Shown: one piece after another, positions 10,881 to 11,094 of the stretch
Layout of the letters: each line of letters begins with the position of its first letter
Position numbering within the stretch: the first letter of the stretch is position 1
NCBI RefSeq assembly: GCF_022846255.1
Contig: NZ_AP025682.1
Source: Escherichia coli
Lineage (GTDB): Bacteria; Pseudomonadota; Gammaproteobacteria; Enterobacterales; Enterobacteriaceae
Direction: 5' to 3' (one strand)
Length of the DNA: 64,000 nucleotides
Made by a program: the position numbers and the translations under genes
Notes under the pieces: model-generated
Told to the model about the DNA's origin: nothing
Seen by the model: the letters and a program-made list of their open reading frames with translations, nothing else
Databases searched by the model: none

Positions 10881-11094
10881 ATCCGCGCACGCATGCCGGA
10901 TGCGGCGTAAACGCCTTATCCGGCCTACATTTCACCCGTAAGCCGTAGGCCTGATAAGACGCGAAAAGCGTCGCATCAGGCATCTGCGCACGGCTGCCGG
11001 ATGCGGCGTGAACGCCTTATCCGGCCTACACTTCGCCCGTAAACCGTAGGCCTGATAAGACGCGTAAGCGTCGCATCAGGCATCACTGCACGGC
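10881..11094. repeat. tandem REP/BIME cluster (two ~100-bp units plus a partial third)
   Basis: Repeated GCCGGATGCGGCG...CGCCTTATCCGGCCTAC and GTAGGCCTGATAAGACGCG...CGTCGCATCAGGC palindromic units. Confidence 0.8.

What the first reader, a model, noticed from the sequence alone, without database searches (positions are those of the whole stretch)
10881..11094. Tandemly duplicated REP/BIME unit between frmB and yaiL, with a similar tandem cluster between yahI and yahG
Two nearly identical ~100-bp units (each with two REP palindromes in opposite orientation) plus a partial third lie at 10881-11094, and a similar double unit lies at 48105-48292. Tandem BIME arrays vary in copy number between strains and can promote rearrangements. 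Several gene-content breakpoints in this window (lacA/codA and others) coincide with REPs.
Basis: seen in the sequence. Interest (0 to 1): 0.2.

Follow-up and report, generated by a model that had tools for sequence, protein, structure and literature searches.

The report
Ordinary E. coli REP/BIME repeat arrays
The two tandem repeats are ordinary members of the well-known E. coli REP/BIME family of intergenic palindromes; their copy number differs between strains and they are sometimes sites of DNA rearrangement, all of which is already textbook for this family.

Summary
Array A (10879-11095) has 2.2 copies of a 101-bp unit. Each unit is a Y REP and an inverted Z2 REP, so this is a BIME-2, lying between the stop codons of convergent frmB and yaiL. 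Array B (48110-48283) has 1.9 copies of a 93-bp unit of Z1 + inverted Y with a short linker. That makes it an atypical BIME, not the same class as A, and it lies between co-directional yahG and yahI.

Copy number varies across complete E. coli genomes. In two samples, array A has one unit in 48 genomes and two in 38. Array B ranges from under one unit to five.

The orthologue of array A is a documented rearrangement site. IS621 sits at the same position, a Z-type REP of the array, in 98 of 5,426 genomes. In K-12, its second Y REP is one partner of the REP-REP exchange that joins yafJ to yaiL on F' pro lac plasmids.

The breakpoint claim is only partly true. Of seven gene-content differences, only cynRTSX (absent here, lacA|codA) has BIMEs at both edges, and one more has a REP nearby. 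All short intergenic length differences map to BIMEs.

Already known; low interest.

The parts
10045..10878 (+). frmB (fghA) S-formylglutathione hydrolase CDS. Its TGA stop (10876-10878) directly abuts array A.
   Evidence: ORF; annotated fghA in syntenic records.
10879..10894 (.). Left outer linker GCATCCGCGCACGCA(T). It resembles the internal head-to-head linker and is the 'partial third copy'. K-12 and O157 carry TAATAG(T)GCACGAC here instead.
10895..10928 (+). Y-type REP no. 1 (GCCGGATGCGGCGTAAACGCCTTATCCGGCCTAC), 97% to the Y consensus, ends in CTAC.
   Evidence: consensus as printed in PMC11208160.
10929..10944 (.). 16-nt short (S-type) tail-to-tail linker, unit 1.
10945..10981 (-). Z2-type REP no. 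1 (inverted). Contains the IS621 target ATCAGGCCTAC at 10945-10955 (-).
10982..10995 (.). Head-to-head linker between units (TCTGCGCACGGCT). It aligns to the linker of the naRNA4/REP325 model.
10996..11029 (+). Y-type REP no. 2 (100% to consensus). Its K-12 orthologue is the crossover point of the F' pro lac junction, within CTTATCCGG (window 11016-11024).
11030..11045 (.). 16-nt S-type linker, unit 2.
11046..11081 (-). Z2-type REP no. 2 (inverted). IS621 target at 11046-11056 (-), the position equivalent to where IS621 sits in EC21Z-014 (98 genomes share that junction).
11082..11095 (.). Right outer linker (partial unit).
11105..11644 (-). yaiL (DUF2058) CDS, convergent with frmB. Its TAA stop lies 23 nt from Z2 no. 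2.
10948..11026 (-). Rfam naRNA4 (RF02564) match, 81 bits. It equals the Y-linker-Z2 head-to-head pair and also matches the + strand at 57 bits.
48111..48139 (+). Array B: Z1-type REP no. 1 (100% to consensus); IS621 target at 48129-48139.
48157..48190 (-). Array B: Y-type REP no. 1 (inverted, 100% to consensus). A 17-nt linker separates it from Z1.
48204..48232 (+). Array B: Z1-type REP no. 2 (93%).
48250..48283 (-). Array B: Y-type REP no. 2 (inverted, 100%), 23 nt downstream of the yahG stop on the - strand.
47110..48060 (-). yahI (carbamate kinase-like) CDS, downstream of array B in the direction of transcription.
48307..49725 (-). yahG (DUF1116) CDS, upstream of array B in the direction of transcription.
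26779..26856 (.). Single Z1-linker-Y BIME at the lacA|codA junction. In cyn+ genomes, directly repeated BIMEs flank cynRTSX at this position.

Best explanation
Both features are members of the E. coli REP/BIME family. These are non-coding, imperfectly palindromic 29-37-nt units (types Y, Z1, Z2) that occur in alternating orientation in intergenic DNA and are associated with the RAYT/TnpA-REP tyrosine transposase.

Array A is a BIME-2: (Y, short linker, inverted Z2) x 2, with head-to-head linkers on both sides. It lies exactly between the stop codons of the convergent genes frmB and yaiL. Array B is an atypical BIME: (Z1, short linker, inverted Y) x 2, inside the co-directional yahG-yahI spacer.

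Shown here: because the units are tandem direct repeats, they gain and lose whole units, and this has happened repeatedly in E. coli. Because they share sequence with hundreds of other REPs and contain the IS621 target ATCAGGCCTAC, they serve as sites for ectopic REP-REP exchange and for IS621 insertion.

Inferred from family knowledge, not tested at these loci: the route of unit gain and loss (unequal homologous exchange or replication slippage, possibly TnpA-REP strand transfer). When transcribed, the hairpins protect upstream mRNA 3' ends from exonucleases and can attenuate read-through between frmB and yaiL, or set yahG:yahI stoichiometry. As DNA, the Y/Z2 pairs of array A are likely gyrase binding and cleavage sites.
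For: Repeat structure.

REP typing: 93-100% identity to the Y, Z1 and Z2 consensus sequences, and every REP ends in CTAC. The consensus sequences are printed in PMC11208160.

Class definitions: BIME-1 is a single z1+y pair with a long L/IHF linker. BIME-2 is tandem z2+y with short S linkers. Atypical BIMEs are chimeric combinations and occur in multiple copies. Copy number is variable between strains (PMC3333891; PMC1187871). No IHF consensus falls in either array.

RNA level: above-threshold match to the REP325-derived naRNA4 model. RNA folds are far more stable than shuffles on both strands (z = -7.4 and -7.2).

Copy-number polymorphism: array A has 1 unit in 48 and 2 units in 38 sampled genomes. 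The single-unit alleles of ST131 and O157 are chimeras with different crossover points. Orthologous units (0.92-0.99 identity) are at least as similar as paralogous ones (0.87-0.93). Array B has 2 units here, 4 in K-12 and 5 in O157, with other spans corresponding to under 1, 1 and 3 units.

Rearrangements: IS621 sits at GTAG|GCCTGAT, with CT on both sides, in the orthologue of array A in EC21Z-014. The same junction is found in 98 of 5,426 genomes. The natural IS621 target is ATCAGGCCTAC (PMC11208160), which occurs 6 times in the window against 0.03 expected. The yafJ|yaiL hybrid Y REP on 231-242-kb conjugative F' pro lac plasmids has its exchange inside CTTATCCGG.

Gyrase cleavage of BIME-2, Y more than Z2: PMC6379681.
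Against: No locus-specific functional data could be retrieved; supplements searched held nothing for frmB/yaiL.

No RAYT gene lies in the window, so any TnpA-REP role would act in trans.

The head-to-head linker was not matched to the published s/l/r motif sequences, which I could not obtain. It only resembles the REP325 linker in the Rfam alignment.

The mechanism of unit gain and loss (RecA, slippage or TnpA-REP) cannot be told from sequence.

In this window the first Y stem starts 16 nt after the frmB stop. That is just outside the under-16-nt range reported to depress translation (Liang 2015, as summarised in PMC12306157).
Confidence: 0.95

Rival explanations
1. Array A is a dedicated small-RNA gene, an naRNA4 paralogue, whose transcript binds HU and bridges cruciform DNA to condense the nucleoid.
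For: The Rfam naRNA4 model matches above its gathering score: 81 bits against 59.5 at 10948-11026 (-), with full model coverage. Qian et al. propose that other REP RNAs may act with HU (PMC4550694).
Against: The Rfam model is simply one Y-linker-Z2 unit of a BIME-2. It also hits the opposite strand (57 bits) and two other BIMEs in the window, including the Z1/Y array B. No promoter-like site lies in or next to the array. About half of sampled genomes have only one unit. The experiments in PMC4550694 concern REP325 at yjdM-yjdN, a different locus.
Confidence: 0.07
2. The array is primarily a bidirectional intrinsic (Rho-independent) terminator for the convergent frmRAB and yaiL transcripts.
For: It sits between convergent stop codons. 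It forms very stable GC-rich hairpins on both strands.
Against: No hairpin is followed by a U tract, and the terminator scan finds nothing inside the array. The same sequence family occurs inside operons, as with array B between yahG and yahI, where full termination would be harmful. BIME-associated attenuation as described in the literature is partial and, from my own knowledge of Espeli et al. 2001 (title cited), Rho-dependent.
Confidence: 0.1
3. The repeats encode small proteins. ORFs of 68-78 aa run through both arrays, and similar ORFs are annotated as YahH or 'hypothetical protein' in other genomes.
For: ORFs at 10777-10983 (-), 48057-48278 (-) and 48092-48328 (-). yahH or a hypothetical protein is annotated across array B orthologues in K-12, O157 and strain 104.
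Against: ORF length changes with unit number, and the ORF disappears in 1-unit alleles. The peptides are just translated REP repeats (e.g. ...ICRPDKR... twice). The unit periods of 101 and 93 nt include one that is not a multiple of three. The sequence is fully explained as REPs on both strands.
Confidence: 0.02
4. The duplication is a strain-specific recent event or an assembly artefact.
For: Short tandem repeats are sometimes mis-assembled.
Against: The identical 217-nt array is present in strain 104, and 2-unit arrays occur in K-12, Z1323HEC0477 and about 44% of sampled complete genomes. The two units differ at about 10% of positions and each is closer to its orthologue in other strains.
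Confidence: 0.01

Closest known systems
BIME-2 (Gilson/Bachellier/Hofnung classification), e.g. REP325 between yjdM and yjdN, sucC-sucB, tldD-yhdP
   Same: Array A has alternating Y and Z2 REPs in inverse orientation, short tail-to-tail linkers, tandem repetition, an intergenic position, strain-to-strain length polymorphism and no IHF site.
   Different: It has only two units, whereas REP325 has six. Its head-to-head linker differs in part from that of REP325. Gyrase cleavage and HU/naRNA activity are not known for this locus.
[quoted passage not shown]
   Same: Array B combines the BIME-1 REP pair (Z1 + Y) with the BIME-2 architecture: a short linker and tandem copies in variable number.
   Different: None of substance. 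It fits the published definition of the residual class.
BIME-1 (RIP/RIB, IHF-binding)
   Same: It shares the Z1 + Y composition of array B and of the lacA|codA BIME.
   Different: BIME-1 is single-copy with a long, conserved L linker carrying an IHF site. Array B is tandem, has a 17-nt linker and no IHF consensus.
REP-REP exchange that formed F'128 pro lac (Kofoid, Bergthorsson, Slechta & Roth 2003, J Bacteriol 185:660)
   Same: The K-12 orthologue of array A's second Y REP is fused to a Y REP of the gmhA-yafJ BIME on 231-242-kb F' plasmids, placing lac about 19 kb from dinB. This matches the paper's title and my recollection of its abstract.
   Different: The paper itself could not be read. 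The identification of its 'Rep sequences' with this array therefore rests on my sequence comparison. The window is not K-12 and carries no such junction.
IS621 / IS110-family bridge-RNA recombinase target sites
   Same: Both Z2 REPs of array A and both Z1 REPs of array B carry the natural IS621 target ATCAGGCCTAC. IS621 occupies that site in array A orthologues in 98 genomes.
   Different: The window itself has no IS621 copy in either array.
REPIN/RAYT systems (Pseudomonas) and the E. coli REPtron (rayT/yafM)
   Same: Inverted REP pairs form the unit. TnpA-REP recognises GTAG plus the stem mismatch and cleaves at CT in inverted REPs and linkers. All eight REPs here keep CTAC/GTAG and mismatched stems.
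   Different: No RAYT gene lies in the window. Mobilisation or amplification by TnpA-REP in vivo has not been shown for these loci.

Membership tests
REP (repetitive extragenic palindrome / palindromic unit) of E. coli | 30-40-nt imperfect palindrome matching the Y, Z1 or Z2 consensus | tested here: met
   Eight REPs match at 92-100% identity over 29-37 nt. Arms are 14 nt and 86% complementary. The consensus strings are the same as those printed in PMC11208160.
REP (repetitive extragenic palindrome / palindromic unit) of E. coli | Conserved GTAG/CTAC tetranucleotide at the foot of the stem | tested here: met
   All eight REPs end in CTAC when read in REP orientation. The requirement is described in PMC3333891.
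REP (repetitive extragenic palindrome / palindromic unit) of E. coli | Extragenic location and high copy number in the genome | tested here: met
   Both arrays lie between stop and start codons. There are 17 REPs in the 64-kb window. Queries containing the array hit a median of 39 places per genome, with the 40-piece limit reached.
BIME-2 | [quoted passage not shown] | tested here: met
   Array A is Y(+), 16 nt, Z2(-), 14 nt, Y(+), 16 nt, Z2(-). Definition.
BIME-2 | Flanking or head-to-head motif of type s, l or r | tested here: inconclusive
   The 14-nt head-to-head linker aligns partly with the REP325 'l' linker in the Rfam model.
BIME-2 | Length (unit-number) polymorphism among isolates at a conserved locus | tested here: met
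   The locus is present in 5,260 of 5,426 genomes. In the two samples 48 genomes have 1 unit and 38 have 2. The expectation comes from Bachellier 1997, as cited.
BIME-2 | DNA gyrase binding and cleavage | not testable with these tools
   This is a family-level result in PMC6379681. No entry for frmB/yaiL was found in the held supplements.
BIME-1 | One Y and one Z1 as a single copy, separated by a long L linker with an IHF site (considered for array B) | tested here: not met
   Array B has the Z1+Y composition but is tandem (2 units here, up to 5 elsewhere). Its linker is 17 nt and carries no WATCAANNNNTTR match. It is therefore filed as an atypical BIME under the definition.
naRNA4 (Rfam RF02564) | Sequence and structure match at or above the gathering score | tested here: met
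   81, 70.2 and 64.1 bits against a threshold of 59.5 at three BIMEs.
naRNA4 (Rfam RF02564) | Transcript of REP325 (yjdM-yjdN) that binds HU and condenses the nucleoid | tested here: not met
   The loci are different (frmB-yaiL, codB-prpE, yahG-yahI). The model matches both strands. HU binding cannot be tested here. The match shows resemblance to a generic BIME unit, not membership of a functional RNA gene family.
IS621 target site | 11-nt target ATCAGGCCTAC with a CT core | tested here: met
   Exact matches at 10945-10955(-), 11046-11056(-), 48129-48139(+) and 48222-48232(+). The site is occupied in orthologues, with CT on both flanks of the IS. Target as given.

The most novel reading that the evidence does not exclude
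Natural variation at the frmB-proximal edge of the BIME-2 might tune FrmB synthesis or frmRAB mRNA stability in a lineage-specific way. The variation concerns unit number (1 or 2) and the spacing from the frmB stop codon to the first REP stem: 13-15 nt in the K-12/O157-type flank TAATAG(T)GCACGAC against 16 nt in the flank GCATCCGCGCACGCA carried by this window. The spacing straddles the under-16-nt threshold reported for REP-induced ribosome stalling. If so, this ordinary repeat would be a polymorphic regulatory element for formaldehyde detoxification.
Probability: 0.08. Interest if true: 0.35.

Novelty: already known. Interest (0 to 1): 0.1.

Why it matters
It matters little beyond correct annotation.

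- These arrays should be labelled BIME-2 (frmB-yaiL) and atypical BIME (yahG-yahI). The ORFs running through them (YahH-like) should be treated as spurious.
- The Rfam naRNA4 hits should be read as generic BIME units, not sRNA genes.
- The locus is a tidy teaching example. One small repeat shows unit-number polymorphism, site-specific IS621 capture and the ectopic REP-REP exchange behind a classic laboratory F' plasmid.
- The cyn operon presence/absence polymorphism, bracketed by BIMEs, illustrates how REPs can mediate or mark gene gain and loss.

Tried and rejected
- **Fuzzy regular-expression scan for REPs:** timed out. I replaced it with blastn-short against the three consensus sequences.
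- **Curated K-12 REP annotation:** the copy of NC_000913.3 held here lists no REP features, so the curated REP numbers could not be quoted.
- **Key papers not held:** Kofoid et al. 2003 (PMC145332) and Liang et al. 2015 (PMC4427526). I used citing papers and direct sequence comparison instead.
- **Locus-specific data in supplements:** the Topo-seq supplements had nothing for frmB/yaiL, and the naRNA4 paper has no supplementary files held as text, so its transcription data could not be checked.
- **Whole-collection unit counts:** I tried to turn the tool's '>=80% coverage' count into an exact count of genomes with <=k units. For array A the tool joined the two pieces, so the count was uninformative. 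I fell back on two systematic 'spread' samples (n = 86).
- **Intrinsic terminator reading:** rejected, as there is no U tract.
- **BIME-1 for array B:** rejected, as it is tandem, short-linked and has no IHF site.
- **REP-REP recombination at the tauA|frmR (yaiS-yaiO) difference:** rejected, because yai+ genomes have no REP at either edge.
- **Outgroup species:** I did not scan them, because the cost was not justified for an already-known element.

Full report
**Observation**

Tandem Repeats Finder reports two outstanding tandem repeats in the window:
- 10879-11095: period 101, 2.2 copies, 89% matches, score 348.
- 48110-48283: period 93, 1.9 copies, 92% matches, score 306.

No other tandem repeat in the window scores above 54. 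The repeat finder shows that each unit contains two imperfect palindromes with 14-nt arms, 86% complementary, in opposite orientation. The coordinates and description in the finding are therefore correct. The 'partial third' unit is the 14-15-nt linker that recurs at both outer edges of array A.

**Anatomy and classification**

I compared the window with the three E. coli REP consensus sequences. These are the strings printed in the Methods of PMC11208160. The comparison finds 17 REPs in the window.

Array A reads as follows:
- Y(+) 10895-10928
- 16-nt linker
- Z2(-) 10945-10981
- 14-nt linker
- Y(+) 10996-11029
- 16-nt linker
- Z2(-) 11046-11081

Array B reads as follows:
- Z1(+) 48111-48139
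- 17-nt linker
- Y(-) 48157-48190
- 13-nt linker
- Z1(+) 48204-48232
- 17-nt linker
- Y(-) 48250-48283

All eight REPs end in the conserved CTAC.

The published definitions are these (PMC3333891; PMC1187871):
- BIME-1 is one z1 plus one y, single copy, with a long L linker that often carries an IHF site.
- BIME-2 is z2 plus y in tandem copies with short S linkers.
- Atypical BIMEs are chimeric combinations in multiple copies.

By these definitions array A is a BIME-2. Array B is an atypical BIME: it has the REP pair of BIME-1 but the architecture of BIME-2. Neither array contains an IHF consensus. The two arrays are only 75-76% alike; their linkers are unrelated. 'Similar' in the finding is therefore true of the kind, not of the class.

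**Context**

The window is an E. coli chromosome segment. It is not K-12, which is only about 96% identical. The closest complete genomes differ by region: strain 104 (99.5%), Z1323HEC0477 (100%) and CU42ET-1 (99.4%).

Array A starts at the base after the frmB (fghA) TGA stop and ends 9 nt before the TAA stop of the convergent gene yaiL. Array B lies in the 246-bp spacer between yahG and yahI, both on the minus strand.

**Copy number across strains**

The frmB-yaiL locus is present in 5,260 of 5,426 complete genomes. Two systematic 'spread' samples were classified by the length of the matched stretch. They give 48 genomes with one unit and 38 with two. None of the 86 had zero units or three or more.

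| Strain | Array A units | Array B units |
|---|---|---|
| Window | 2 | 2 |
| Strain 104 | 2 | 2 |
| Z1323HEC0477 | 2 | 2 |
| K-12 | 2 | 4 |
| O157:H7 | 1 | 5 |
| ST131 | 1 | region absent |

Sampled spans for array B also correspond to under 1, 1 and 3 units.

For array A, orthologous units between strains are 0.92-0.99 identical. The two units within one strain are 0.87-0.93 identical. The single units of ST131 and O157 are chimeras with different switch points. The duplication is therefore old, and units have been lost at least twice independently. This is the 'high level of length polymorphism' already described for BIME-2 (Bachellier 1997, quoted; PMC3333891).

**Rearrangements at array A**

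Two sampled records had alignments that stopped inside the array.

*IS621 insertion.* In strain EC21Z-014 an IS621 element (IS110 family) is inserted at ...CCGTAG|[IS]|GCCTGATAAG... On the other strand this reads ATCAGGC-CT-[IS]-CT-ACGG. That is the natural IS621 target ATCAGGCCTAC with its CT core (PMC11208160). The same frmB-Y-IS621 junction occurs in 98 of 5,426 genomes, including HS and 55989, in both one-unit and two-unit contexts. The window has six exact copies of the target, four of them in the two arrays, against 0.03 expected.

*F' junction.* In the XL1-Blue record yaiL is joined to yafJ. A three-way alignment shows a hybrid Y REP:
- Up to ...ACGTCTTATCCGG it is identical to the gmhA-yafJ BIME of MG1655.
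- From CTTATCCGGTCTAC... onward it is identical to the second Y of the MG1655 frmB-yaiL array.
- The exchange therefore lies in the shared 9 bp.

The same 901-bp junction is 100% identical on three conjugative IncF plasmids of 231-242 kb. Four further F' plasmid records begin at it. In TG1 'plasmid F' the gene order is proAB ... dinB ... rayT ... yafJ | yaiL-mhp-lac-cyn-codA.

[quoted passage not shown] 2003. I could see only its title and could not read the paper. That it places lac near dinB is my recollection of the abstract.

**Test of the breakpoint claim**

I aligned the window with K-12, strain 104, Z1323HEC0477, ST131 and O157:H7 and listed every structural difference. There are seven distinct gene-content differences:
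- yaiS-yaiO
- the mhp operon (absent in Z1323HEC0477)
- two extra genes between mhpR and lacI in O157
- cynRTSX
- yahL
- a 5.26-kb ABC-transporter cassette
- ehaA

Only cynRTSX has REPs at both edges. In K-12 and O157 a Z1-linker-(degenerate Y) lies between lacA and cynX. A Z1-linker-Y in the same orientation lies between cynR and codA. The window and ST131 have a single Z1-linker-Y whose left part is of the lacA-side type and whose right part is of the codA-side type. 985 of 5,426 genomes share this cyn-less junction. In the rest the alignment breaks at window 26774-26833, inside the BIME. The direction of the event, deletion between the repeats or insertion into a BIME, is not resolved.

The yaiS-yaiO difference has a Z2 REP 12 bp from one edge in the cassette-less allele, but no REP at either edge in cassette-bearing genomes. 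The other five differences are more than 600 bp from any REP.

By contrast, every short intergenic length difference (40-600 bp) maps to a BIME: array A, mhpE-mhpT, codB-prpE, prpB-prpC and array B. REPs explain the small polymorphisms well and the gene-content mosaic only occasionally.

**How it most likely works**

Shown here:
- The arrays are tandem direct repeats that change unit number.
- They provide homology for ectopic exchange.
- They provide the specific target for IS621.

Inferred from the family literature:
- Transcribed REPs fold into stable hairpins. Here the minimum free energies are -117 and -120 kcal/mol, with z = -7.4 and -7.2 against shuffles, on the two strands.
- Such hairpins block 3'-5' exonucleases and can attenuate read-through (Newbury 1987, Espeli 2001, Khemici 2004, listed). 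At array A this would separate the convergent frmRAB and yaiL transcripts. At array B it would favour yahG over yahI.
- No intrinsic terminator (hairpin plus U tract) and no promoter lies in array A.
- BIME-2 DNA is preferentially cleaved by gyrase, in Y more than in Z2, independently of transcription (PMC6379681). This is plausible at array A but not documented for it.
- REPs closer than 16 nt to a stop codon lower translation (Liang 2015). Here the spacing is 16 nt, against 13-15 nt in the K-12/O157-type flank. The effect, if any, would differ by lineage. This is the only mildly novel reading left open.
- TnpA-REP cleaves and recombines BIMEs in vitro and was proposed to drive unit-number change. 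No rayT gene lies in the window.

**The Rfam match**

The naRNA4 model matches at 10948-11026(-), 29573-29649(-) and 48160-48229(+) above its gathering score. The model is one Y-linker-Z2 unit of REP325 (PMC4550694). It also matches the opposite strand of array A at 57 bits, and it matches a Z1/Y pair. The hits identify BIME units, not a dedicated RNA gene.

**Verdict**

Everything found is a locus-level instance of properties published for REP/BIME elements between 1984 and 2024. Novelty: already known. Interest: low.

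Noticed in passing
window 26771-26856: The cyanate operon cynRTSX is absent: lacA is joined to codA through one Z1-linker-Y BIME. In cyn+ genomes, directly repeated BIMEs flank the operon (K-12 even has the codA-side BIME plus about 200 bp duplicated). 985 of 5,426 complete genomes share the cyn-less junction. Whether this is a deletion or an insertion is unresolved.
   Followed up: yes
window 8267-8430: A 164-bp segment with a single Z2 REP (8384-8419) replaces the yaiS-yaiP-yaiX-yaiO cassette (3.9 kb in strain 104, 5.2 kb with IS2 in K-12). ST131 has the same short allele. The cassette-bearing genomes have no REP at either edge.
   Followed up: partly
window 40393-45654: A 5.26-kb cassette is present here and in strain 104 and O157:H7 but absent from K-12 and Z1323HEC0477. 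It carries a sugar/AI-2-type ABC transporter (binding protein, ATPase, two permeases) plus an ASCH-domain gene. No REP lies within 2.4 kb of its edges.
   Followed up: partly
window 38962/38963 and 55690-56514: yahL (836 bp in K-12 and O157) is missing without any REP nearby. The 4.6-kb ehaA autotransporter gene of strain 104 is replaced here by 824 bp.
   Followed up: no
window 13052-13084, 29570-29652, 34276-34357: Three further BIME loci differ in length from other strains: mhpE-mhpT (K-12 +365 bp), codB-prpE (+94 bp in four strains, +574 bp in O157) and prpB-prpC (K-12 +279 bp). The 29573-29649 pair also matches Rfam naRNA4.
   Followed up: partly
window 48057-48278 (-), 48092-48328 (-), 10777-10983 (-): ORFs of 68-78 aa run through the REP arrays and translate into repeated REP peptides. 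Equivalent ORFs are annotated as 'YahH' or 'hypothetical protein' in K-12, O157 and strain 104, and are most likely spurious.
   Followed up: partly
window ~8450-8510: A long near-perfect inverted repeat (ATACTATAGGGGGGTATGC ... GCATACCCCCCTATAGTAT) lies just upstream of frmR and is conserved in all strains compared. It is presumably the frm promoter/operator.
   Followed up: no
L005 (NZ_CP081007.1, XL1-Blue 'chromosome') 3990-4210: The F'-type yafJ|yaiL hybrid junction appears in the record labelled as the XL1-Blue chromosome. Either the F' is integrated or it was merged into the chromosome during assembly.
   Followed up: no
L009 (Z1323HEC0477) 26735-26937; L011 (O157:H7) 12777-14678: The region between lacI and yaiL/mhpR is itself variable. 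Z1323HEC0477 lacks the whole mhp operon and keeps a GlxA-regulator fragment. O157:H7 has an MBL-fold hydrolase gene and a GlxA-family regulator gene between mhpR and lacI. No REPs lie at these edges.
   Followed up: partly
window 62585-64000: Beyond about 62.58 kb the window no longer aligns with the K-12 betA-ykgH region. I did not examine the content.
   Followed up: no
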